This document shows, piece by piece, positions 48,366 to 63,001 of a stretch of 64,000 bases of DNA (position 1 is the first letter of the stretch; each line of letters opens with the position of its first letter). The stretch is from a plasmid. The stretch lies in the sequence record NZ_CP025192.1; one strand, written 5' to 3'. The notes under the pieces were generated by a model. That model worked only from the letters and a program-made list of their open reading frames with translations. It was not told the DNA's origin and did not search any database. The translations under genes were made by a program, and so were the position numbers.

Positions 48366-49331
48366 ATGGCTCAGCCTCGCCGTCAGACCGCCGATCGCCC
48401 GGCTCCCCGCGACCATTACGCCGAGATCACCAGCCAGATCGTGGAGGCCCTGGAGGCCGGCACGGTGCCGTGGCGCCGGCCCTGGGACCAGGACAAGGCC
48501 GGTGCCGGTCCGCTGTCGCCCCGCAACGGGGTCACCGGGCGCCGCTACCACGGGATCAATGTGCTGCTGCTGGGCATGACCGGCCTGGCCTTCGCCGGCA
48601 CGGATCCCCGCTGGCTCACCTACAGGCAGGCCGAGGAGAAGGGGTGGCAGGTCCGCCGCGGCGAGCGCGGCAGCCGCGTCTTCTTCTTCCGCAAGCTGAC
48701 CCTGCGGGACGGCGACGCCGCACCCGAGGCGGGAGGCGAGGGCACCCGCACCGTGCCGGTGCTTCGTGCGTACACGGTGTTCCACGCGAGCCAGGTGGAG
48801 GGCATCCCGAGCTTCGAGGCCCCGTCCACCGAGAAGGCCTCCTGGCGCACGCCCGAGGCGGCCGAGACGATCATGCGCAACAGCGGCGTGGCGTTCCGGG
48901 AAGGAGGCGACCGCGCCTACTACTGGCCGGCGACGGACCACATCCAGATGCCGCCGCGCGCGGCCTTCGCCACGCCGGAGGGCTACTGCGCCACGGGCCT
49001 GCACGAGCTGGCTCACGCCTCCGGCGCGAAGCACCGCCTCGACCGTGACCTGACGGGTCGCTTCGGCAGCCACGCCTATGCCCAGGAGGAGCTCCGTGCC
49101 GAGCTGACATCCTGCTTCGTCGGCGCCGAGCTGGGCCTGCCCTGCGACATCCCGAACCACGCCAGCTACGTCTCATCGTGGCTCAGGACGCTTCGGCAGG
49201 ACAAGCGCGAGATCTTCCGCGCCGCGGCCGAGGCCCAGCGCATGGCCGACTACCTGCTCGGCTTCCATCCCGGGCACGCCCGACGGGCGGCCGAGGAGGC
49301 GCGGCGCGACGAGGCCGCGGAGGCGGCGTGA
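48366..49331 (+). CDS. ardC: ArdC-family antirestriction protein (DUF1738 ssDNA-binding + zincin-like metalloprotease domain)
   Basis: ITSQIVEALEAGTVPWRRPW N-terminal signature. HELAHA metalloprotease motif. Confidence 0.85.
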   Translation: MAQPRRQTADRPAPRDHYAEITSQIVEALEAGTVPWRRPWDQDKAGAGPLSPRNGVTGRRYHGINVLLLGMTGLAFAGTDPRWLTYRQAEEKGWQVRRGERGSRVFFFRKLTLRDGDAAPEAGGEGTRTVPVLRAYTVFHASQVEGIPSFEAPSTEKASWRTPEAAETIMRNSGVAFREGGDRAYYWPATDHIQMPPRAAFATPEGYCATGLHELAHASGAKHRLDRDLTGRFGSHAYAQEELRAELTSCFVGAELGLPCDIPNHASYVSSWLRTLRQDKREIFRAAAEAQRMADYLLGFHPGHARRAAEEARRDEAAEAA

Positions 49332-52116: not shown

Positions 52117-55100
52117 ATGGCCAAGGCCGCCCCGTCCTCCCAGCTCAGCCTGTTCGATACCACCGCGCTCTCCTCGCCCTTCTCGCTGTTCGGCGACGGC
52201 GGCGGCGGCCTCCTGCCTGCCGCGGGAGGCGAGGACGACGAGGAGGAGAGCGCGTCGGCGCCGCTCGCGCCCGCCATCCCGCGCGTGGTGGCCCGGGACT
52301 TCCGACTCACCACCGAACGCGGCCTCGCCGCCGGCTGGAAGGCCCGCGCGGCCGACAACCTGGCCGCCATCCGGCTGATGCAGCGGATCGAGGGCGAGAC
52401 CCGGCCGGCCACGGCCGAGGAGCAGGCGATCCTGGCGCGCTTCGTCGGCTACGGGGCAGGCGATCTCGCCAACACCCTGTTCCGCCGCCCTGGCGAGGAC
52501 TGGCGCGACGGCTGGGCCGAGCAGGGGGATGGGCTGGAGCAGGCAGTGTCGGCCAGCGAGCACGCCTCTCTCAGCCGCTGCACGCAATATGCCCACTTCA
52601 CCCCGGAATACATCGTGCGGGCAGTCTGGGCCGGCCTGGGCCGCATGGGCTTCCGGCGCGGTGCCATCCTGGAGCCGGGCTGCGGCACCGGCCAGTTCCT
52701 GGCCCTGCGCCCGGATGGGATCGAGGACTGCTCGGCCGTCACCGGCATCGAGATGGACCCGGTGACCGCCCGCATCGCGGCGTTGCTGTATCCGAAGGCC
52801 TGGATCCGCAACGAGGATTTCTGCCGCGCGAAGCTGGTCGAGAATTACGACCTCGCCATCGGCAACCCGCCCTTCTCGGACCGCACCGTGCGCGCCGAGG
52901 ACCCGGCTGGCCGGCTCGGCCTCAAGCTGCACGACTACTTCATCGCCCGCGCCGTGGAGCGCCTGCGGCCGGGTGGGCTGGCCGCCTTCGTCACCAGCCA
53001 CGGCACCCTGGACAAGGTGGACCCGAAGGCACGCGAGCACATCGCCGGCATGGCCGACCTGGTGGGCGCCATCCGTCTGCCGGCGGGTTCTTTCGCGGCG
53101 GCGGCCGGCACGGACGTGGTGGTGGACATCCTGTTCCTGCAGCGTCGCGAGCGCGGCGCCGCCCCGAACGGGGTGGAGTGGGTGCATCTCGCCGAGGTGG
53201 TCCCGGCCACCGACGGCGAGGCCGCCATCCACGCCAACGCCTGGTTCGCGACGCACCCGGAGATGGTGCTGGGCCGCCACGGGTGGACCAGCGGGCCGTT
53301 CGGCCTTGCCTACGACTGCGCCCGCGACGGCCGCGACCTCGACGCCGCCCTGGCCGAGGCCATCGCCCGACTGCCCGAAGGCATCCACCAGCCCCCGGCC
53401 ACCGCCGCGGCGCCCGTGCGGGCCGCGAAGCCCACCGTGCAGGTCGGCACCGCCGCCGAGGGCGCCACGATCAAGGAGGGGTCCTATCTGCTCGGCCAGG
53501 GCGGCACGCTCCTGCAGGTGGTGGACGGTCGCGCCGAGGAGGTGGCGGTGAAGTCCGGCAAGGGCACCGTCGGCCTCTTCGCCAAGCACGCCCGCATCAT
53601 CCGCGGCCTGATCCCGGTCCGTGACGCCGTGCGCGAGGTGATCCGCGCCCAGGAGGCGGACGAGCCGTTCGGCGCCGCCCAGGTGCGGCTGCGCGCCGCC
53701 TACGGCAGCTTCGTGCGCGCCTTCGGCCCGATCAACCTGACCACCGTCTCCACCTCCACCGACGAGGCGACGGGGGAGGTGCGCGAGAGCGTGCGGCGGC
53801 CCAACCTGCAGCCCTTCCTCGACGATCCGGACAGCTGGCTTGTCTCCTCCATCGAGGAATACGACCTGGAGACGGGCACGGCGAGCCGGGGCCCGATCTT
53901 CACCGACCGGGTGATCCACGCCCCGGCCGAGCCGGTCATCGTCTCGGCGGCCGATGCCTTGGCGGTGACGCTGGCCGAGCGCGGGACCGTGGACCTCGAC
54001 CACATCGCCGAGCTGCTCGGCCGCGACCGGGCGACGGTGCTGGCCGAGCTCGGCGAGACCGTGTTCCTCGATCCCGGCCTGACCACGGGGGGCTTCGAGG
54101 CCTGGCAGACCGCCGACGAGTACCTGTCGGGCCATGTCCGCCGCAAGCTCGCGGCCGCGCGGGCCGCCGCCGTGCTGGACGAACGGTATGCCCGCAACGT
54201 CGTGGCGCTGGAGCGGGTGCAGCCGGAGGACCTGCGCCCCTCCGACATCACCGCCCGCCTCGGTGCTCCGTGGATTCCGGCCAGCGACGTCGCCAGCTTC
54301 ATCGAGGAAGTGATGGGGGTCCGGACCGTGGTGCGGCACACCGTGGAGGTGGCGCACTGGAGCATCGAGGTCCACCGCTTCGCGGGCGAGGCGTCCGCCA
54401 CCTCGGAATGGGGCACGCACCGCCGCCATGCCGGCGAGCTGCTGGACGATGCCCTGAACGCCGCCATCCCGCAGATCTGGGACGTCTGGCGCGACGAGAA
54501 CGGCGAGCACCGCCAGCTGAACGCCAAGGAGACCGAGGCCGCCAAGGACAAGCTGGCCAGGATCAAGGGCGCCTTCGAGCGTTGGGTCTGGACCGACGGC
54601 GATCGCGCCGAGCGGCTGGTGCGCGTCTACAACGATGCCTTCAACAGCCTGATGCCGCGGCACTTCTCGGGCGAGCACCTGCAACTGCCCGGCGCCTCCA
54701 CGGCGATCCAGCTGCGCGCCCACCAGAAGCGCGTGGTTTGGCGCATCATCGCCTCCGGCCAGACCTACATCGCCCACGCCGTGGGGGCCGGCAAGACCTT
54801 CACCATCGCCGCCGCGATCATGGAACAGAAGCGCCTCGGCCTGATCTCCAAGGCGATGCTGACGGTGCCCGGCCACTGCCTGGCGCAGGCCTCGCGGGAG
54901 TTCCTGCAGCTCTATCCGGGCGCCCGCATCCTGGTGGCCGACGAGACCAACTTCAGCAAGGACAAGCGCGGCCGCTTCCTGGCCCGGGCGGCGACCGCCA
55001 ACTGGGACTGCATCATCATCACCCATTCGGCGTTCAAGTTCATCGCCTCGCCGGCGGAGTTCGAGCGCGGCCTGGTGCAGGCACAGCTCGACGCCTACTC

Positions 55101-57198
55101 GGCCCTGTTGAGCCGGCTCGACGGTGAGGACCGCATCGCCCGCAAGCGCATCGAGCGCATGAAGGAGGGCATGCAGGAGAAGCTGGAAGGCCTGTCCAGC
55201 ACCAAGGACGACATGCTGACCATCGCCGAGATGGGCGTGGACCAGCTGATCGCCGACGAGGCGCAGGAGTTCCGCAAGCTGTCCTTCGCCACCAACATGG
55301 GCGGCCTCAAGGGCATCGCCCCGGACGGCTCGCAGCGGGCCTGGGACCTGTTCGTGAAGTCGCGCTTCGTGGCGACCGTCAATCCTGGCCGGGCGCTGGT
55401 GCTGGCCTCGGGCACGCCCATCACCAACACCCTGGGCGAGATGTTCACCCTGCAGCGCTTCATGCAGCCGGAGATGCTGGAGGAGCGTGGCATCCAGGAG
55501 TTCGACGCCTGGGCGTCCAATTTCGGCGATACCCGCACCGAGCTGGAACTGCAGCCCTCCGGCCTCTACAAGCCGGTGACGCGCTTCTCCGAGTTCGTCA
55601 ACGTGGCCGACCTGATCGCCATGTTCCGCTCCGTCGCGGACGTGGTGCTGAAGGACGACCTGCGGCAGTACCTGCGGCTGCCCGCGATCACGGGCGGCAA
55701 GCGCCAGATCGTCACCGCCCCCGCCAGCCCGGCCTTCAAGGCCTACCAACGCCACCTGGCCGAGCGCATCAAGGCGATCGAGGCGCGAAAGGGTAAGCCC
55801 GAGAAGGGCCAGGACATCCTGCTCTCCGTCATTACCGACGGCCGGCACGCCGCGATCGACCTGCGCTTCGTGGTGCCCGAGCAGGACAACGAGCCGCAGA
55901 ACAAGCTCAACCTGCTGATCGGGAACGCCTTCCGCATCTGGCAGGAGACCCGGGACCGGCGCTACCGCAGGCCGGACGGCACGCCGCACCCGGTGCCGGG
56001 CGCCGCGCAGATGATCTTCTCGGACCTGGGCACCGAGGGGGCGCTCGCCACGCGGGGCTTCTCGGCCTATCGCTGGATCCGCGAGCGCCTGATCGCCCTC
56101 GGCGTGCCGGCCGAGCGCATTGCCTTCATGCAGGACTACAAGAAGGCGGAAGCCAAGCAGTCGCTGTTCAACGCCCTGAACAACGGCCAGATGGACTTCG
56201 TGCTGGGCTCCTCGGCCACCATGGGGACCGGCGTGAACGCCCAGCGCCGGCTCGCCGCTCTGCACCACCTCGACGTGCCCTGGCTACCGTCCGAGATCGA
56301 GCAGCGCGAGGGCCGCATCGAGCGGCAGGGCAACCAGAACGAGGAGATCGGTCTCTACGCCTACGCCACCCTGGGCTCCATGGATGCCCAGATGTGGCAG
56401 AACAACGAGCGCAAGGCGCGCTTCATCGCGGCGGCGCTGGGCGGGGACCGCTCGATCCGCCGGCTGGAGGACCTCGGCAGCCAGGCCAACCAGTTCGCCA
56501 TGGCCAAGGCCATCGCGTCGGGCGACCCGCGGCTGATGCAGAAGGCCGGGCTGGAGGCCGAGCTTGCCCGGCTGGAACGACAGCACGCCGCGCATTTCGA
56601 CGACCAGCACGCCGTCCGGCGGCGCATCGCGGAGGCCCGCTCGGCGGTCGGCCGGGCGACCCAGGCGATCACCGACACCGAGGCCGACCTGGCGCGGCGG
56701 GTGTCCACCCGGGGCGAGGCGTTCCACATGGAGGTGGAGGACAGGACCTTCACCGAGCGCAAGCCGGCTGGCGCCGCGCTGCTGAAGTTCATCCGGACCG
56801 TGCAGTTCGAGGGCCGCAAGGGCGATTGGGACCTCGGGACCATCGGCGGCTTCCCGCTGAAGCTGGAGGCACGTCGCTACCAGCAAGGCGCCAAGCTGGA
56901 AGTCCACCTCCTGCTCGCGCGCACCGGCGGGGAGCAGGAAATCCAGATCGAGGACGACCTCACCGCCATGGGGCTGGTCTCGCGCCTGGAATACGACCTC
57001 GGGCGCTTCGAGGCGGAACTGGCCGAGCACCGGCGCCGTCTGGCTGAAGCCAAGCGGCAACTGCCGGCCTACGAGGCACGGCTCGCAGCAGGCTTCGAGT
57101 TCGCGGACGAGCTGGAGGCCAAGCGGGCCGAGATGAAGCGGCTGGAAGAGGACCTGGCTCAGACAGGGAAGGAGGAAGAACTGCCCGCCGCAGCTTGA
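52117..57198 (+). CDS. Large N6-adenine DNA methyltransferase + SNF2/DEAD-like helicase fusion protein (conjugative-element Sno-like methylase-helicase)
   Basis: Methyltransferase motifs EPGCGTGQF and AIGNPPFSD. Helicase motifs AHAVGAGKT and LIADEAQEF. 1693 aa. The antisense 1465-aa ORF is spurious. Confidence 0.85.
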   Translation: MAKAAPSSQLSLFDTTALSSPFSLFGDGGGGLLPAAGGEDDEEESASAPLAPAIPRVVARDFRLTTERGLAAGWKARAADNLAAIRLMQRIEGETRPATAEEQAILARFVGYGAGDLANTLFRRPGEDWRDGWAEQGDGLEQAVSASEHASLSRCTQYAHFTPEYIVRAVWAGLGRMGFRRGAILEPGCGTGQFLALRPDGIEDCSAVTGIEMDPVTARIAALLYPKAWIRNEDFCRAKLVENYDLAIGNPPFSDRTVRAEDPAGRLGLKLHDYFIARAVERLRPGGLAAFVTSHGTLDKVDPKAREHIAGMADLVGAIRLPAGSFAAAAGTDVVVDILFLQRRERGAAPNGVEWVHLAEVVPATDGEAAIHANAWFATHPEMVLGRHGWTSGPFGLAYDCARDGRDLDAALAEAIARLPEGIHQPPATAAAPVRAAKPTVQVGTAAEGATIKEGSYLLGQGGTLLQVVDGRAEEVAVKSGKGTVGLFAKHARIIRGLIPVRDAVREVIRAQEADEPFGAAQVRLRAAYGSFVRAFGPINLTTVSTSTDEATGEVRESVRRPNLQPFLDDPDSWLVSSIEEYDLETGTASRGPIFTDRVIHAPAEPVIVSAADALAVTLAERGTVDLDHIAELLGRDRATVLAELGETVFLDPGLTTGGFEAWQTADEYLSGHVRRKLAAARAAAVLDERYARNVVALERVQPEDLRPSDITARLGAPWIPASDVASFIEEVMGVRTVVRHTVEVAHWSIEVHRFAGEASATSEWGTHRRHAGELLDDALNAAIPQIWDVWRDENGEHRQLNAKETEAAKDKLARIKGAFERWVWTDGDRAERLVRVYNDAFNSLMPRHFSGEHLQLPGASTAIQLRAHQKRVVWRIIASGQTYIAHAVGAGKTFTIAAAIMEQKRLGLISKAMLTVPGHCLAQASREFLQLYPGARILVADETNFSKDKRGRFLARAATANWDCIIITHSAFKFIASPAEFERGLVQAQLDAYSALLSRLDGEDRIARKRIERMKEGMQEKLEGLSSTKDDMLTIAEMGVDQLIADEAQEFRKLSFATNMGGLKGIAPDGSQRAWDLFVKSRFVATVNPGRALVLASGTPITNTLGEMFTLQRFMQPEMLEERGIQEFDAWASNFGDTRTELELQPSGLYKPVTRFSEFVNVADLIAMFRSVADVVLKDDLRQYLRLPAITGGKRQIVTAPASPAFKAYQRHLAERIKAIEARKGKPEKGQDILLSVITDGRHAAIDLRFVVPEQDNEPQNKLNLLIGNAFRIWQETRDRRYRRPDGTPHPVPGAAQMIFSDLGTEGALATRGFSAYRWIRERLIALGVPAERIAFMQDYKKAEAKQSLFNALNNGQMDFVLGSSATMGTGVNAQRRLAALHHLDVPWLPSEIEQREGRIERQGNQNEEIGLYAYATLGSMDAQMWQNNERKARFIAAALGGDRSIRRLEDLGSQANQFAMAKAIASGDPRLMQKAGLEAELARLERQHAAHFDDQHAVRRRIAEARSAVGRATQAITDTEADLARRVSTRGEAFHMEVEDRTFTERKPAGAALLKFIRTVQFEGRKGDWDLGTIGGFPLKLEARRYQQGAKLEVHLLLARTGGEQEIQIEDDLTAMGLVSRLEYDLGRFEAELAEHRRRLAEAKRQLPAYEARLAAGFEFADELEAKRAEMKRLEEDLAQTGKEEELPAAA

Positions 57199-57486: not shown

Positions 57487-59253
57487 ATGAAGCTGATCGA
57501 GACCGACCCCAAGAAGCTGCGCAACAACCCGGCCAATCCCCGCCTGACCCCGGCTGGACCTGACGCCGACGCTGTGCTGCTGGCCAACATCAAATCCGTC
57601 GGCATCCTGCAGCCGCCGACCGCTCGCGAGGTCGAAGGCGAGCTCGTGCTGATCGCCGGCCATCGCCGCCGCGACGCCGCCATCAAGGCCGGCCTCCGGA
57701 GCATCCACGTCCTGGTGCGCGAGGACGGTGACGAGGCCGGCGCCGACCAGGTGCGGGCCCTGGCCGAGAACACGGTGCGGGCGGGCATGAACCCGGTCGA
57801 CCAGTGGCGCAAGATTGAGGCCCTGGTCAGCGAGGACTGGACCGAGGAGGCCATCGCCAGCGCCCTGAACCTCACCGTCCGGCGGGTCCGGATGCTCCGG
57901 CACATGAGCCACATCCTGCCCGCCATGCTGACCCAGATGGCCCGCGGCGACATGCCGAACGAGCAGCAGCTGCGCACCATCGGCCTCGCCACGGCGGAGG
58001 AGCAGGCGGCGGTCTGGAAGTCGAACAGGCCCAAGCGGAACGAGCGGGCCAGCTGGCACATGATCGCCCACGGCCTCGACCGGCGCCGGATCCCGTTCAC
58101 CCGGGCGAAGTTCGGGCCGGCCGAGGCCGAGGCCTTCGGCATCGTCTGGCACGATGACCTGTTCGCACCCGGCGACACCGATCCCCGCTACACCACGCAG
58201 ACCGACGCATTCATCCAGGCGCAACAGGCCTGGCTGGAGAACAACCTCCCCGAGGGCGGTGTCCTGCTGGGGCTCGACGAGTACGAGCGGCCGGTGCTGC
58301 CGAAGGGCGCGCAGTCGCTCTACTACCGCCAGCCCGGGCCGGACGACACGGTGGGCTACTATGTCGACCGGCGTTCCTGCGAGGTCGAGACCTCGATCTT
58401 CCGGATGCCCGTGCGGACCGAGCCCCGCTCCTCAGGCGCCCGCAACGATACGACCGGCGCCACGATGCCCAAGGCGGCCCGCCCCGATCTGACGCAGAAG
58501 GGCGAGACCATGGTGGGCGACCTGCGGACCGAGGCGCTGCACACTGCCTTCGCCGAGGCTGAGATCCCCGACGACACGCTGATCGGCCTGCTCGTCCTGG
58601 CCCTGGCGGGGCGGAACGTCAGCGTACGTTCCGGCGCGAGGGGCGACGACCTCTACGCCGGGCACCGCGCGGAACTGGCCGCCTCCATCACCGAGGGCGG
58701 CGTCATCACCAGCGATCCGGCCGCGCTGCGCGCCGCCGCCCGTGGGATGCTCCGTCAGGCGCTGTCCTGCCGGGTCGGCTTTTCGTCCTCGGGGATGGTC
58801 GGGCGCATCGCGGGCTTGGCCGTGGAGGCCGACAGCTACCTGCCGACCACGGCGACGGAGGAATTCCTTGCCAACCTGAGCAAGGCGGCCATCGAACGCA
58901 CCGCCAGCGCCAACAATGTCCTGCCCCGGCAAACCGGCAAGGCCACACGCGCGGCGATCGTGGAACAGATGAAGAACCGGATCTTCCTGCACCCGCTGGT
59001 ACGCTTCGGGTTCACCGACGAGGAGCGCCGCAAGGCCGCCGCGGACCGGACGCGCGCCGCGGAGCTGGCCGCCTTCCGCAAAGGGGGCTGCGGCACCGAG
59101 GACGCGAGCATCGAGGGCGAGGAGATCCCGGAGGAGGACGAGGAGGCGGAGCCGTCGCAGCCGGACGAGGGTGAGGACGAGACGGAGGGGGACGGGAACG
59201 GCGCCCCGCCACCCCCAGGCCAGGGCAGCGCCCCCGTCGCGCACGCGCCCTGA
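57487..59253 (+). CDS. ParB-like nuclease domain protein (ParB/Srx N-terminus) with an acidic C-terminal tail
   Basis: LIAGHRRRDAAIKAGL ParB box. Poly-Glu/Asp tail. Confidence 0.8.
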   Translation: MKLIETDPKKLRNNPANPRLTPAGPDADAVLLANIKSVGILQPPTAREVEGELVLIAGHRRRDAAIKAGLRSIHVLVREDGDEAGADQVRALAENTVRAGMNPVDQWRKIEALVSEDWTEEAIASALNLTVRRVRMLRHMSHILPAMLTQMARGDMPNEQQLRTIGLATAEEQAAVWKSNRPKRNERASWHMIAHGLDRRRIPFTRAKFGPAEAEAFGIVWHDDLFAPGDTDPRYTTQTDAFIQAQQAWLENNLPEGGVLLGLDEYERPVLPKGAQSLYYRQPGPDDTVGYYVDRRSCEVETSIFRMPVRTEPRSSGARNDTTGATMPKAARPDLTQKGETMVGDLRTEALHTAFAEAEIPDDTLIGLLVLALAGRNVSVRSGARGDDLYAGHRAELAASITEGGVITSDPAALRAAARGMLRQALSCRVGFSSSGMVGRIAGLAVEADSYLPTTATEEFLANLSKAAIERTASANNVLPRQTGKATRAAIVEQMKNRIFLHPLVRFGFTDEERRKAAADRTRAAELAAFRKGGCGTEDASIEGEEIPEEDEEAEPSQPDEGEDETEGDGNGAPPPPGQGSAPVAHAP

Positions 59254-60380: not shown

Positions 60381-61070
60381 ATGACGACCCTCCTCGAGCG
60401 CGTGCTGCGCTCGGCGGCCGAGGATCTCGGCCTCTCGCCCCAGGGCTGGACCGCCCTGGACGGCGATCTCCTGAACGGACAGAGCTTCCGGCACCCGGAC
60501 AGGCCCTCGCTCGTCATCGAGGTCGTCTGCGACGGACAGGCCTGGTCCTGGTCGACCGGGGGCTCCGATCGTGACGAACGGCCGGTGCTGCTGACGGCAA
60601 GCGGCCAACCCTGGGCCTGCGTCCATGATCTCGCCATCGGTCTCCACGCCGATGCCCGCGCCGCGCTGCTCGCCGCCCTGGCGGTCGCCGGCGACGACCT
60701 CCGCGAAGCGCGCCTGTGCTCGACCGCGATGCTGCACACGCGCCTGGCCGCGGTGACGGGCCGCCGGGGCACCGACGTCTTCGTGGCGCCGGTGAAGGTG
60801 GTTCCGGGACGGGAAACGGCGCCGGCGGCACCTCGGGCGCTGGTCTGGGACTACCGGGGCGTGATTCCGGACGGCACCGAGGTGTCCGGCACCGTGGTCG
60901 CCACCGACGAGGTGACGGCCGAGGATCTTGCCGTCCACACCTGTCCGGTCCTGCACCTGATCTCCCTGCGCCCGCGTCTCGCCGGCCTTTCGCCGCTGCC
61001 GCAGATACAGGCCGGCGCCGCCCTGGAACTGCTCTTTCCGGCCTCCGGCGACATCGCGGCCTCCCGGTAG
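60381..61070 (+). CDS. Hypothetical protein (229 aa)
   Basis: ORF downstream of repeat copy 7. Antisense ORFs are Arg-rich junk. Confidence 0.5.
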   Translation: MTTLLERVLRSAAEDLGLSPQGWTALDGDLLNGQSFRHPDRPSLVIEVVCDGQAWSWSTGGSDRDERPVLLTASGQPWACVHDLAIGLHADARAALLAALAVAGDDLREARLCSTAMLHTRLAAVTGRRGTDVFVAPVKVVPGRETAPAAPRALVWDYRGVIPDGTEVSGTVVATDEVTAEDLAVHTCPVLHLISLRPRLAGLSPLPQIQAGAALELLFPASGDIAASR

Positions 61071-61192
61071 CGCGGCGACCGCCGCCTGACGACCCGGCGC
61101 CGGAACACGCGCCACCTCTTCCATCGACCATCGCCATCACGAACGGCAGGACCTCCCGGTCCTGCCGTTCGCGTTTCCGGAGACCCACGCCC

Positions 61193-63001
61193 ATGCTCAC
61201 CGAGAGCGGCCACGCCACCATCCTGCACGCCCACCTCTTCGCCGGCCTCGGCGGCGGGGCGCGCGGGTTCAACCGGGCCACCTCCCGGGTCGGCAACCTC
61301 ACCGCGAGCTTCCGCTGCCTCGGCGGCATCGACGTGGACGCCGCCGCGATCCGCGACTTCGGCCGCCTCGCCGGCGTGCCCGGCACCTGCCTGGACCTGT
61401 TCGACCGCGAGCAGTACCGCGACTTCCACGGCCAGGAGCCGCCCGCCGGCTGGCGCGAGGCCACCGTGGACGACGTGCGCGCGGCCTTCGGCCACGAGCG
61501 CCCGCATGTCCTGTTCACCTCGCCCCCCTGCAAGGGCTTCTCCGGCCTGCTCAGCGAGACCAAGAGCCGGACCCGGAAGTACCAGGCGCTGAACCGCTTG
61601 ACGCTGCGCGGCATCTGGCTGGCGCTGGAGGCCTACCGGGACGATCCGGTGGAGCTGATCCTGCTGGAGAACGTGCCCCGCATCGCCTCGCGCGGCCGGC
61701 CGCTGCTGGACCAGATCGGCGGCCTGCTGCGGGCCTACGGCTACGCCGTGGCCGAGACGACGCATGACTGCGGGGAGCTGGGCGGGCTGGCGCAGTCGCG
61801 CCGCCGCTTCCTGCTGGTCGCCCGCCACACCGCCAAGGTGAAGCCATTCCTCTACGAGCCACCGAAGCGCTCGCTGCACGGCGTCGGTGACGTCCTCTCC
61901 CGCATGCCCCTGCCCGGCGATCCGGCGGCGGGGCCGATGCACCGGGTGCCGATGCTCCACTGGGCGACCTGGGTCCGGCTCGCCTTCGTCGAGGCCGGGT
62001 CCGACTGGCGCTCGCTGGGCCGGCTCGCGGTCGAGGACGGGCTGCTGCGCGACTATGCCCTCGCCCCTTGCGGCGAGTGGCGCGGCGGTGTGCTGGGCGT
62101 CAACCACTGGGAGGAGCCGGCCGGCACCGTGGCGGGCCGGTCCGGCCCCTCGAATGGCGCCTACAGCGTCGCCGACCCCCGGCGTGCCGACGGGGTGGCC
62201 GCCTTCGGCCAGTACGGCGTCAAGCGGTTCGACCAGCCCTCCCAGGTCGTGATCGGCAAGGCCGCGGTCGGCGCCGGCGGCTTCGCCGTGGCGGATCCCC
62301 GCCACACCGGCCCGGCGAAGCACTCCAACGAGTTCCGCATCGTGCCCTGGGACGGCGCCGGCCGGGCCGTGACGGGGGCCCACGGCACCGGGCAGTGCGT
62401 GGCCGATCCACGGGGTGAGGTCCGCCGCTCGGGCGCGCTGGGCGTCGTGCCCTGGGACGCCGCCGCCGGCACGGTGGCCGGCGAGAGCCTGCCCTCCAAC
62501 GGCACCTTCGCGGTGGCCGACCCCCGGCCCCGGCTGGAGCGCGAGAAGGGCGACGACTACTACGGCGCCGGCCACTACGGCGTGGTGCCGTGGCAGGCTT
62601 CCACCGGCGCGGTGAGCGCAGCGGCCGGCTACGACAACGGCCGCTGGAGCGTCGCCGACCCGCGCCCGGCGCTGCCGCAGGCCTCGGACCGGGTGGTGGC
62701 GCGCATCCGCGCCCTGGATGGGACCTGGCACCGGCCCTTCACCACTGCCGAGCTCTGCGCGCTGCAATCACTGATCGAGCCGGAGGAACAGGCCGAGCTG
62801 GACGGGCTGAGCGATGCCGACTGGCGCGAGCGCATCGGCAATGCCGTACCGCCCGACGCCGCTCAGGCCATCGCCGAAACCATGGGCCGGACGCTGCTGC
62901 TCGCCTGGTCGGGGGAGGGCTTCATGCTCTCGGCTCTCCCGATCTGGGTGCGGCCGATGGCTGTCGCGCTCTCGGTACGCCAACCACAGGACGCAGCGTA
63001 A
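61193..63001 (+). CDS. DNA (cytosine-5) methyltransferase with an expanded repeat-containing variable region (candidate multispecific orphan MTase)
   Basis: Motif I FAGLGGG, motif IV SPPCKGFS, motif VI LLENVP, motif VIII QSRRRFLLVA, motif X GNAVPP. Five tandem ~40-aa repeats ending in VADPR lie between motifs VIII and IX. Confidence 0.8.
   Translation: MLTESGHATILHAHLFAGLGGGARGFNRATSRVGNLTASFRCLGGIDVDAAAIRDFGRLAGVPGTCLDLFDREQYRDFHGQEPPAGWREATVDDVRAAFGHERPHVLFTSPPCKGFSGLLSETKSRTRKYQALNRLTLRGIWLALEAYRDDPVELILLENVPRIASRGRPLLDQIGGLLRAYGYAVAETTHDCGELGGLAQSRRRFLLVARHTAKVKPFLYEPPKRSLHGVGDVLSRMPLPGDPAAGPMHRVPMLHWATWVRLAFVEAGSDWRSLGRLAVEDGLLRDYALAPCGEWRGGVLGVNHWEEPAGTVAGRSGPSNGAYSVADPRRADGVAAFGQYGVKRFDQPSQVVIGKAAVGAGGFAVADPRHTGPAKHSNEFRIVPWDGAGRAVTGAHGTGQCVADPRGEVRRSGALGVVPWDAAAGTVAGESLPSNGTFAVADPRPRLEREKGDDYYGAGHYGVVPWQASTGAVSAAAGYDNGRWSVADPRPALPQASDRVVARIRALDGTWHRPFTTAELCALQSLIEPEEQAELDGLSDADWRERIGNAVPPDAAQAIAETMGRTLLLAWSGEGFMLSALPIWVRPMAVALSVRQPQDAA

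What the first reader, a model, noticed from the sequence alone, without database searches (positions are those of the whole stretch)
62095..62680. Five tandem ~40-aa VADPR repeats fill the variable region of the C5 cytosine methyltransferase: candidate multispecific orphan MTase
Between conserved motif VIII (QSRRRFLLVA) and the C-terminal motifs (GNAVPP) the protein carries five tandem repeats. Each has the pattern [VI]VPW..A.GTV.G.S.PSNG.[FYW][AS]VADPR: ...GAYSVADPRRADG, GGFAVADPRHTGP, GQCVADPRGEV, GTFAVADPRPRLE, GRWSVADPRPALP. Phage multispecific C5 MTases (SPR, phi3T) stack several ~40-aa target-recognition modules in exactly this position. A plasmid/ICE-borne version would protect transferred DNA against several host restriction systems at once. 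No cognate restriction gene is adjacent.
Basis: partly seen in the sequence, partly recalled or inferred. Interest (0 to 1): 0.6.

Follow-up and report, generated by a model that had tools for sequence, protein, structure and literature searches.

The report
Plasmid cytosine methylase with swappable modules
A Roseomonas plasmid gene encodes a DNA cytosine methylase whose DNA-reading region is a string of five related ~40-residue modules that relatives gain, lose and swap like cassettes, so it probably marks several different DNA sequences at once to shield the plasmid from many restriction enzymes, though no methylation data exist yet.

Summary
ORF 61193-63001(+) is a 602-aa C5 cytosine methyltransferase with motifs I, IV, VI, VIII and X. 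Between motifs VIII and IX lie five contiguous modules of 34-46 aa, each ending in VADPR (62081-62665).

The modules behave as cassettes, not as a fixed structural repeat:
- Homologues carry about 3 to 12 modules.
- Modules fall into at least 24-50 discrete types. Mean identity is 67% within a type and 36% between types.
- No protein holds two modules of one type at a 60% identity threshold.
- Relatives with about 80% identical cores differ by replacement, insertion or deletion of whole modules.

The family is very large (more than 7,000 clusters at 90% identity). It occurs on proteobacterial and Bacillota plasmids (including pWW0), in chromosomal copies and in Pseudomonas temperate phages. 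Members often sit beside ssb and anti-restriction genes such as ArdC and ArdR. No conserved restriction partner was seen.

This matches the logic of the multispecific Bacillus phage enzymes (SPR, phi3T), but I found no detectable sequence homology to them.

Direct tests were inconclusive. Two AlphaFold runs left the module region at low confidence, and profile searches found no known target-recognition domain. I found no prior description in the papers searched.

Verdict: a probable new variant of multispecific orphan methyltransferase, confidence about 0.6. Methylome data are needed.

The parts
61193..63001 (+). C5 cytosine DNA methyltransferase gene (602 aa plus stop), an orphan with no adjacent restriction gene detected
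   Evidence: ORF list. It is 100% identical to the annotated CDS of CP099475.1. PF00145 scores 44.2 bits against a cutoff of 22, over aa 15-222. Foldseek matches the model's catalytic domain to DNMT1, MET1, M.HaeIII and M.HhaI at E 1e-8 to 1e-10.
61238..61258 (+). Motif I, FAGLGGG (AdoMet binding)
   Evidence: the glycines are invariant in the family alignment
61523..61543 (+). Motif IV, PPCKGFS (catalytic Cys113; Lys in place of the usual Gln)
   Evidence: P112 C113 K114 G115 S117 are invariant in 68 homologues
61667..61675 (+). Motif VI, ENV
61793..61807 (+). Motif VIII, QSRRR
62081..62182 (+). Module 1 (aa 297-330, RGGVLGVNHWEEPAGTVAGRSGPSNGAYSVADPR). This type is nearly always the first module in homologues.
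62183..62302 (+). Module 2 (aa 331-370, ...FGQYGVKRFDQPSQVVIGKAAVGAGGFAVADPR). An optional cassette type, present in 37 of 120 top homologues.
62303..62413 (+). Module 3 (aa 371-407, HTGPAKHSNEFRIVPWDGAGRAVTGAHGTGQCVADPR). An optional cassette type with 79% within-type identity. It is 86% identical in an Azospira protein whose core is only 71% identical.
62414..62527 (+). Module 4 (aa 408-445, ...SGALGVVPWDAAAGTVAGESLPSNGTFAVADPR). An optional cassette type found at ordinal positions 1 to 6 in homologues.
62528..62665 (+). Module 5 (aa 446-491, ...KGDDYYGAGHYGVVPWQASTGAVSAAAGYDNGRWSVADPR). This type is last in 115 of 121 Proteobacteria-dominated homologues.
62726..62773 (+). Motif IX-like segment, WHRPFTTAELCALQSL
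   Evidence: Equating it with the canonical R.LT.RE..LQ.F motif is my own reading of the sequence.
62837..62854 (+). Motif X, GNAVPP
61140..61171 (.). Perfect inverted repeat (14-nt arms, 4-nt loop) ending 21 nt before the start codon. It could be an operator or the terminator of the upstream gene.
   Evidence: function not tested
48366..49331 (+). ArdC anti-restriction gene in the same-strand gene block
   Evidence: Pfam ArdcN E 3.6e-35 and MPTase-PolyVal E 8.9e-49
52117..57198 (+). 1693-aa ORF combining an N6 DNA methylase domain with SNF2/ResIII helicase domains; a second orphan methylase in the block
   Evidence: Pfam N6_Mtase, ResIII, SNF2-rel_dom and Helicase_C; ORF list
57487..59253 (+). 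ParB N-terminal-domain protein (588 aa), 2 kb upstream of the methylase

Best explanation
The gene most likely encodes an orphan, multispecific C5 cytosine methyltransferase carried by a plasmid.

One catalytic core (motifs I-VIII, plus IX-X at the C-terminus) is combined with an array of five homologous ~40-aa recognition modules inserted where single-specificity enzymes have one target-recognition domain.

Each module has a shared scaffold (V..W, V.G, G, VADPR). It also has two segments that are strongly conserved within a module type but differ between types. I infer these are the DNA-contacting loops. I also infer that each module, or at least each optional internal one, directs the shared active site to its own short target sequence. 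The enzyme would then methylate several motifs.

The array evolves by insertion, deletion and exchange of whole modules at the invariant VADPR junctions.

Inferred biological role: the element methylates its own DNA in the donor cell or lysogen. The transferred or packaged DNA then arrives already protected (hemimethylated after complementary-strand synthesis) against several Type II restriction systems. This works alongside ArdC and the neighbouring N6 methylase-helicase.

Shown: the anatomy, the cassette behaviour, the intact catalytic residues and the mobile-element context.
Inferred: that modules are target-recognition domains, that each gives a separate specificity, and the protective role.

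The nearly constant first and last modules may provide family-wide specificities, or may serve as a scaffold.
For: 1. Position. The modules fill the interval between motif VIII with its canonical lead-in and the motif IX-like segment. This is where the SPR-family enzymes carry their block-indel target-recognition domains.

2. Copy number. Among the top 120 homologues the VADPR-unit count ranges from 3 to 10, although the lowest counts reflect degenerate anchors and one truncated protein. Protein length rises by about 40 aa per unit. A module-profile search of 1.84 billion representative proteins hit 549 clusters, with up to 12 modules per protein.

3. Discrete types. There are 24 types at a 50% identity threshold and 50 at 60%. 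Mean identity is 0.67 within a type and 0.36 between types. Modules within one protein average 0.36 identity. At the 60% threshold, 0 of 653 modules are redundant within a protein.

4. Mosaicism.
- P0007 has an 80% identical core but modules 2 and 4 are replaced (best matches 45% and 53%).
- P0006 has all five window types plus one inserted module.
- P0013 has a 72% identical core yet carries window module 4 at 87% identity, in position 6.
- A Pseudomonas lineage shows a series of 3, 4, 5 and 6 modules that mostly differ by one added module per step.
- A co-resident plasmid of the same strain carries a six-module paralogue. It shares three types with the window protein and differs in three.

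5. Column analysis. Columns 13-16 and 32-44 have high entropy overall (about 2.3-3.5 bits for most) but low entropy within a type (0.3-0.8). Scaffold columns are near-invariant.

6. Catalytic residues are invariant across homologues, and the fold of the core is confirmed.

7. Context.
- The window holds ArdC, a ParB_N protein and an N6 methylase-helicase; ssb lies about 6 kb downstream in the matching record.
- In pPHE101 and pWW0 the homologue lies in a same-strand block with ssb, and in pPHE101 also with ArdR, stbB and the MOBF relaxase.
- Homologues also occur in P2-like and F116-like Pseudomonas temperate phages.
- No neighbouring restriction-enzyme domain was found, and no neighbour is conserved across loci.
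Against: - No methylation data were found for any member (literature).
- The module profile does not match any solved methyltransferase at E up to 10. hhalign against the SPR-family alignment gives probability 0.15%.
- Pfam does not score the C-terminal half better when single modules are spliced in.
- AlphaFold2 gave pLDDT below 50 for the whole module region, both in the window protein and in a natural 3-module relative with a 148-sequence alignment. A target-recognition-domain-like fold is therefore not shown.
- The first and last module types are nearly constant, which fits a scaffold role as well as a specificity role.
- The modules are rich in Gly and Ala (17% and 16%), as flexible linkers can be.
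- The oriT position and the transfer direction of this plasmid were not determined. PLSDB types the plasmid as non-mobilizable.
Confidence: 0.6

Rival explanations
1. The enzyme has one specificity, or a relaxed low specificity. The repeat array would be a structural or DNA-holding element such as a flexible beta-rich clamp, spacer or non-specific DNA-binding tail. Its length would vary, but its units would not each define a target.
For: - There is no detectable similarity of modules to known target-recognition domains.
- AlphaFold gives low confidence over the array in both models.
- The composition is rich in Gly and Ala.
- The first and last modules are nearly constant.
Against: - Linkers and generic binding repeats do not normally keep about 50 discrete sequence types at 67% within-type identity across bacterial classes.
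- They would not be expected to avoid repeating a type within one protein (0 of 653).
- They would not be expected to conserve a module better than the catalytic core (87% against 72%).
- The type-specific conserved segments point to selection on module-specific function.
Confidence: 0.2
2. Only some of the units are target-recognition domains. Either the constant first and last units together form one conventional recognition domain and the optional internal units modulate it, or the reverse. The number of specificities would then be well below the number of modules.
For: - The first and last types are present in nearly all Proteobacteria-dominated homologues, whereas internal types come and go.
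- The smallest natural member still has the first type, one internal type and a degenerate last module.
Against: - The Bacillus licheniformis and Paenibacillus plasmid relatives lack the proteobacterial last-module type yet keep 3-4 modules ending in DPR or a degenerate variant of it.
- All modules share the same scaffold, so there is no sequence reason to treat the end modules as a different kind.
Confidence: 0.12
3. The modules recognise something other than double-stranded DNA sequence. Candidates are single-stranded transferred DNA, a partner protein of the conjugation or replication machinery, or host defence proteins for which they act as decoys.
For: - Plasmid methylases that act on single-stranded DNA during conjugation are known for adenine methylases (PMC7736820, abstract seen).
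- The gene sits among ssb and ParB-like genes.
Against: - The same family sits in temperate phages that do not transfer single strands.
- The modules have near-neutral net charge, so they do not look like acidic DNA mimics.
- They occupy the exact recognition-domain slot of a C5 methylase.
Confidence: 0.05

Closest known systems
Multispecific C5 cytosine methyltransferases of Bacillus temperate phages (M.SPRI, M.Phi3TI, M.Rho11sI, M.SPBetaI, M.H2I)
   Same: Both have one catalytic core and an enlarged variable region between motifs VIII and IX built of contiguous ~40-50-aa units. Relatives differ by presence or absence of whole units; this is seen for the Bacillus phage enzymes and for this family. 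Both are orphan enzymes on mobile elements. Their accepted role is protection against several restriction systems at once (PMC12707154).
   Different: - There is no detectable homology of modules or core beyond the general C5 methylase motifs.
- Here the modules are clearly homologous to each other, with an invariant VADPR end and a V..W..V.G scaffold. By my reading of the alignment and by recollection, the Bacillus phage domains share only a T-[LIV]-type dipeptide.
- Arrays reach about 12 units, against 2-4 recognised targets in the phage enzymes (recollection).
- Hosts are mainly Proteobacteria, and carriers include conjugative plasmids and chromosomal copies (presumably integrated elements).
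- Specificities are unknown.
M.BssHII and the prophage M.(phi)BssHII, multispecific C5 methylases of Bacillus stearothermophilus (recalled from the literature, not retrieved here)
   Same: One polypeptide methylates several related targets through multiple recognition domains.
   Different: As I recall it, those domains are few and one enzyme has them at separated locations. No repeat family with a common anchor motif is described.
Orphan methylases of plasmid leading regions, such as M.EcoGIX and M.BceJIII (PMC7736820), and the methylase families enriched in leading regions (PMC11541004)
   Same: They are plasmid-borne, lack a restriction partner, and are found near ssb and anti-restriction genes. 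Their presumed role is escape from recipient restriction.
   Different: As I recall, the characterised ones are adenine methylases with relaxed specificity acting on single strands. This is a C5 methylase, and its breadth would come from stacking modules rather than from degenerate recognition.
Ordinary single-specificity Type II C5 methylases (M.HaeIII, M.HhaI, Dcm)
   Same: They share the catalytic fold and motif order. A single module resembles the canonical W-x-x-P-x-x-T-[IV] segment of such enzymes, for example RVRQWNEPAFTVQASG in M.HaeIII. That sequence is recalled from memory and the resemblance is not statistically supported here.
   Different: They have one recognition region and are usually paired with a restriction enzyme. 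No profile-level match to the modules was found. NCBIfam dcm scores 31.8 bits, far below its cutoff of 100.65.

Membership tests
C5 cytosine DNA methyltransferase (Pfam PF00145) | Motif I, F.G.GG, for AdoMet binding | tested here: met
   FAGLGGG at aa 16-22; invariant glycines
C5 cytosine DNA methyltransferase (Pfam PF00145) | Motif IV Pro-Cys with the catalytic cysteine | tested here: met
   PPCKGFS at aa 111-117. The Cys is invariant. Lys replaces the usual Gln throughout the family.
C5 cytosine DNA methyltransferase (Pfam PF00145) | Motifs VI (ENV), VIII (Q.R.R) and X (GN.V) in canonical order | tested here: met
   ENV at 159-161, QSRRR at 201-205, GNAVPP at 549-554
C5 cytosine DNA methyltransferase (Pfam PF00145) | Profile score above the curated cutoff | tested here: met
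   PF00145 scores 44.2 bits against 22, N-terminal half only. NCBIfam TIGR00675 dcm scores 31.8 against 100.65, so that stricter model is not met.
C5 cytosine DNA methyltransferase (Pfam PF00145) | Catalytic-domain fold | tested here: met
   Foldseek against PDB matches DNMT1, MET1, M.HaeIII (1dct) and M.HhaI at E 1e-8 to 1e-10. The model's N-terminal domain has pLDDT of about 90.
C5 cytosine DNA methyltransferase (Pfam PF00145) | 5-methylcytosine-forming activity | not testable with these tools
   Needs expression and methylation mapping.
Multispecific C5 methyltransferases (SPR/phi3T type) | One catalytic core, with several contiguous ~40-50-aa units in the variable region between motifs VIII and IX | tested here: met
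   Five units of 34-46 aa at aa 297-491. The reference architecture is seen.
Multispecific C5 methyltransferases (SPR/phi3T type) | Related enzymes differ by gain, loss or exchange of whole units | tested here: met
Multispecific C5 methyltransferases (SPR/phi3T type) | Each unit independently determines one target, so deleting it removes only that specificity | not testable with these tools
   An experimental criterion. Only indirect support is available: non-redundant types and type-specific conserved segments.
Multispecific C5 methyltransferases (SPR/phi3T type) | Sequence homology to the Bacillus phage enzymes or their recognition domains | tested here: not met
   hhalign of the module profile against the SPR, rho11s, H2 and SPbeta alignment gives probability 0.15%. 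This is therefore an analogue, or a very distant relative, and not a member of that lineage.
Multispecific C5 methyltransferases (SPR/phi3T type) | Orphan enzyme on a mobile element, with no cognate restriction enzyme | tested here: met
   No restriction-enzyme domain in the flanking ORFs. Neighbours are not conserved across loci. Carriers are plasmids and phages.
Plasmid leading-region anti-defence genes | Located in the first-transferred region next to oriT, oriented for early expression | tested here: inconclusive
   - In pPHE101 the homologue lies in a same-strand block with ssb and ArdR, about 7.5 kb from stbB and about 10.5 kb from the MOBF relaxase gene.
- In this plasmid ArdC, the ParB_N protein, the methylase and ssb share a strand, and a relaxase gene lies about 16.5 kb downstream.
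- oriT and the transfer polarity were not determined, and PLSDB types the plasmid as non-mobilizable.

The most novel reading that the evidence does not exclude
The family is a natural plug-and-play recognition system. Dozens of ~40-aa module types would each be sufficient to direct a shared C5 methylase core to a different short sequence. They would be joined at an invariant VADPR junction that lets modules be inserted, deleted and exchanged, giving single polypeptides with up to about 12 specificities.

This would make these the most multispecific DNA methyltransferases known. It would also be a widespread anti-restriction strategy, unrecognised in the papers I searched, of proteobacterial plasmids (including pWW0), integrated elements and temperate phages. 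The many natural module combinations would allow a module-to-motif code to be read off by methylome association.
Probability: 0.45. Interest if true: 0.78.

Novelty: new variant of a known kind. Interest (0 to 1): 0.62.

Why it matters
If each module is a separate target-recognition domain, three things follow.

1. One small gene would give plasmids, integrated elements and phages of Pseudomonas, Burkholderia, Roseomonas and many others protection against a whole panel of restriction systems. That would help explain broad-host-range spread, including of resistance and catabolic plasmids such as pWW0 and VIM-carrying Pseudomonas plasmids.

2. Multispecific methylases, so far described in the papers I searched only for a handful of Bacillus phage enzymes studied in the 1980s-90s, would turn out to be common. 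They would have a far larger and cleaner natural module library: at least 50 types and hundreds of combinations. That library is well suited to working out how ~40 residues specify a DNA sequence, and to engineering methylases with chosen target sets.

3. It would affect the interpretation of bacterial 5mC methylomes, where many motifs might trace to one orphan gene.

If the modules are not independent recognition domains, the finding is still a large, unexplained repeat architecture inside a very common plasmid gene.

Tried and rejected
- Tandem repeat search on DNA found nothing in the gene, so the repeats are protein-level only.
- Pfam and NCBIfam see only the N-terminal half.
- Splicing single modules between the conserved flanks and rescanning Pfam gave no score gain (46 bits in all constructs). 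Only the module 1 construct aligned end to end, so this was uninformative.
- The module profile (100 modules) against PDB sequences gave only chance NF-kB hits at E of about 0.2.
- phmmer with the lead-in, module 1 and C-terminus gave no hits. The full-family profile against PDB gave no hits at E 0.01 or better.
- hhalign of the module profile against the SPR-family alignment gave no match.
- AlphaFold2 on the window protein with 68 homologues gave pLDDT below 50 for aa 239-522.
- AlphaFold2 on a natural 3-module relative with 148 homologues gave pLDDT below 50 for aa 286-432. No fold comparison of modules was therefore possible. Foldseek informed only on the catalytic core.
- A homologue search with the module region alone returned only fragments of 355 aa or less and was not useful.
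- PHROGs gives only generic DNA methyltransferase families, and nothing for the module region alone.
- Promoter and terminator consensus scans around the gene found nothing.
- Literature searches for a plasmid-borne or proteobacterial multi-domain C5 methylase, and for F116-phage or pWW0 methylase characterisation, found none. A 2025 review cites only Bacillus phages for stacked recognition domains. The key 1996 EMBO J paper was not available. REBASE could not be consulted.
- I rejected a closed propeller or solenoid of fixed size, because copy number ranges from about 3 to 12. I rejected an acidic DNA mimic, because module net charge is -1 to +2.
Full report
**Observation**

The window's right end holds a + strand ORF (60716-63001). 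Its biologically sensible start is ATG 61193, 9 nt after a GGAGA, and this is also the annotated start in GenBank. The 602-aa product has the C5 cytosine methyltransferase motifs in canonical order:
- FAGLGGG (I)
- PPCKGFS (IV)
- ENV (VI)
- QSRRR (VIII)
- a motif IX-like WHRPFTTAELCALQSL
- GNAVPP (X)

Pfam PF00145 matches the N-terminal half above its threshold. The stricter NCBIfam dcm model does not reach its cutoff. Between motif VIII and the motif IX-like segment, VADPR occurs five times. In 5000 shuffles no 4-mer reached five copies. VADPR closes five contiguous units of 34-46 aa (nt 62081-62665). The DNA itself shows no tandem repeat. Units are 28-63% identical at the protein level, so the duplications are ancient.

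**Where it comes from**

The protein is 100% identical to a CDS of Roseomonas mucosa TT14 plasmid pTT14-4 (CP099475.1, 146.5 kb). The window differs from that record by 1-3-nt offsets upstream.

On the same strand upstream lie:
- ArdC (48366-49331)
- a 1693-aa N6 methylase fused to SNF2/ResIII helicase domains (52117-57198)
- a ParB_N protein (57487-59253)

Downstream in the GenBank record are a UvrD-like helicase, ssb and, about 16.5 kb away, a relaxase-domain gene. None of the small flanking ORFs has a recognisable restriction-enzyme domain.

**The family**

More than 7,600 clusters at 90% identity match the whole protein. On annotated plasmids it is found in Pseudomonas (91 records), Burkholderia, Roseomonas and others, and more distantly in Bacillus and Paenibacillus. 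Some contexts:
- In the TOL plasmid pWW0 and the IncP-9-like pPHE101, the gene lies in a same-strand block with ssb and a DUF932 gene.
- In pPHE101 that block also holds ArdR, and stbB and the MOBF relaxase follow.
- The family is also in Pseudomonas temperate phages: F116-like H66 and LKA5, Dobby, and a P2-like phage-plasmid.
- Neighbours differ from locus to locus, so there is no conserved restriction partner.

**The decisive comparative result**

The number of VADPR units varies among close homologues, and protein length tracks it at about 40 aa per unit. A profile of 100 modules searched against 1.84 billion representative proteins hit 549 clusters, with up to 12 modules per protein.

Clustering 566 distinct modules from 121 proteins gives discrete types: 24 at a 50% identity threshold and 50 at 60%.
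- Mean identity within a type is 0.67, and between types it is 0.36.
- Modules inside one protein average 0.36 identity.
- At the 60% threshold no protein contains the same type twice (0 of 653 modules).
- One type is nearly always first and one is last in 115 of 121 proteins. The internal ones occur in more than 50 different orders and combinations.

Close relatives are mosaics:
- P0007 shares an 80% identical core and modules 1, 3 and 5, but modules 2 and 4 are replaced.
- P0006 has all five window types plus one inserted.
- P0013 has a 72% core but carries the window's module 4 type at 87% identity, in position 6.
- An Azospira protein with a 71% core has module 3 at 86%.

A Pseudomonas lineage forms a series of 3, 4, 5 and 6 modules that mostly differ by one added module per step. 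A second plasmid of the same Roseomonas strain carries a six-module paralogue, directly upstream of an ArdC-like gene. It shares three types with the window protein and has three others.

Column statistics separate two classes of position:
- A near-invariant scaffold: V, W, V.G, G, VADPR.
- Two segments that are highly variable between types but conserved within a type (most at about 2.3-3.5 bits overall against 0.3-0.8 within a type).

This is what one expects of interchangeable functional cassettes under type-specific selection. It is not what one expects of a linker or a fixed structural repeat.

**Comparison with the known multispecific enzymes**

I retrieved SPR, rho11s, H2 and SPbeta methylases from the phage collection. 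Their alignment shows block indels of ~40-80 aa between motifs VIII and IX in otherwise 72-81% identical proteins. This is the same evolutionary behaviour at the same position. [quoted passage not shown]

The present family is not detectably homologous to them. hhalign of the module profile against their alignment finds nothing. So it works like an SPR-type enzyme, by inference, but it is not a member of that lineage. It also differs in having mutually homologous modules with a common anchor, and in much larger arrays.

**Direct tests of "module = target-recognition domain"**

These were inconclusive.
- Profile and sequence searches of PDB chains gave no methyltransferase hit for modules or for the C-terminal half.
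- Spliced mini-constructs did not improve the Pfam score.
- AlphaFold2 modelled the catalytic domain well, and Foldseek matched it to DNMT1, MET1, M.HaeIII and M.HhaI.
- The module region stayed below pLDDT 50 in both the window protein and a natural 3-module relative with a deeper alignment.

A resemblance of single modules to the canonical W..P..T[IV] segment of enzymes such as M.HaeIII is my own recollection and is not statistically supported here.

**Mechanism proposed**

Shown:
- an intact C5 methylase core
- a cassette array in the recognition-domain slot
- orphan status
- a mobile-element and anti-restriction neighbourhood

Inferred:
- each module, certainly the optional internal ones, pairs with the shared active site to methylate its own short motif
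- the element's DNA is methylated in the donor or lysogen and so enters new hosts pre-protected, hemimethylated after second-strand synthesis
- this complements ArdC and the neighbouring N6 methylase-helicase
- the cost would be exposure to methylation-dependent nucleases

I put this at about 0.6. The rivals are:
- a structural or non-specific DNA-holding repeat with one or relaxed specificity (about 0.2)
- only a subset of units being true recognition domains (about 0.12)
- recognition of something other than double-stranded DNA sequence (about 0.05)

**Novelty**

I found no description of this family as multispecific, nor any functional characterisation of a member, in the held literature. 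REBASE could not be checked. I rate it a new variant of a known kind: multispecific orphan methylase, but a different lineage with homologous anchored modules, much larger arrays and plasmid carriage. The claim is directly testable by methylome mapping of the natural module series.

Noticed in passing
window 52117-57198 (+): An intact 1693-aa ORF combines an N6 DNA methylase domain with ResIII/SNF2/Helicase_C domains, making it a second orphan methylase in the same gene block. No CDS is listed for this stretch in the gene table shown for CP099475.1. That record differs from the window by 1-3-nt offsets here, so the gene may be frameshifted in that assembly.
   Followed up: partly
window 48366-49331 (+): An ArdC anti-restriction gene (ArdcN plus zincin metallopeptidase domains) lies on the same strand about 12 kb upstream of the methylase.
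   Followed up: yes
window 61140-61171: A perfect inverted repeat, CGAACGGCAGGACC / GGTCCTGCCGTTCG, with a 4-nt loop ends 21 nt before the methylase start codon. It could be an operator for regulated expression or a terminator without a T-run. Conservation was not checked.
   Followed up: no
window 61523-61543: Motif IV reads PPCKGFS. Lys follows the catalytic Cys instead of the usual Gln, and this is invariant across the family alignment.
   Followed up: no
relatives P0124 (1203 aa) and P0221 (1057 aa), not in the window: Two family members carry a ~400-aa intein-like insertion at the catalytic Cys of motif IV (SAPC|LPANG ... ATHN|CKGLSG). I judged this by eye; no domain scan was run.
   Followed up: no
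relative P0131 (614 aa), not in the window: To my eye, a GcrA-like N-terminus is followed directly by about eight modules with no methylase catalytic domain, and the C-terminus looks frameshifted. It could be an assembly artefact or a real fusion that reuses the module array.
   Followed up: no
L009 (CP099474.1 133424-135856), plasmid pTT14-3 of the same strain: A co-resident plasmid carries a six-module paralogue directly upstream of an ArdC-like gene. It shares three module types with the window protein and has three different ones. Its motif I region looks disrupted and the gene is not listed as annotated, so it may be a pseudogene or a sequencing frameshift. A third plasmid of the strain (CP099473.1) has a 97.7% identical copy split into two pieces.
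   Followed up: partly
L011 (pWW0, NC_003350.1 14385-16067), L008 (pPHE101) and L010 (p716811-VIM): Family members sit on well-studied or clinically relevant Pseudomonas plasmids: the TOL plasmid pWW0, IncP-9-like pPHE101 and a VIM plasmid. On pWW0 and pPHE101 they lie in same-strand blocks with ssb and DUF932. I found no functional characterisation.
   Followed up: partly
L012 and L013 (Bacillus licheniformis and Paenibacillus polymyxa plasmids): Distant Bacillota relatives (37-42% identity) have 3-4 modules, most ending in DPR. They lack the proteobacterial last-module type, and their modules look closer to the canonical W-[DE]-K-P..T-[IV]-T-G pattern.
   Followed up: partly
window 60851-62767 (-) and other long ORFs overlapping the gene: Several long ORFs on other frames and on the opposite strand, such as a 638-aa ORF on the minus strand, overlap the methylase gene. 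In 69% G+C DNA these are most likely spurious.
   Followed up: no
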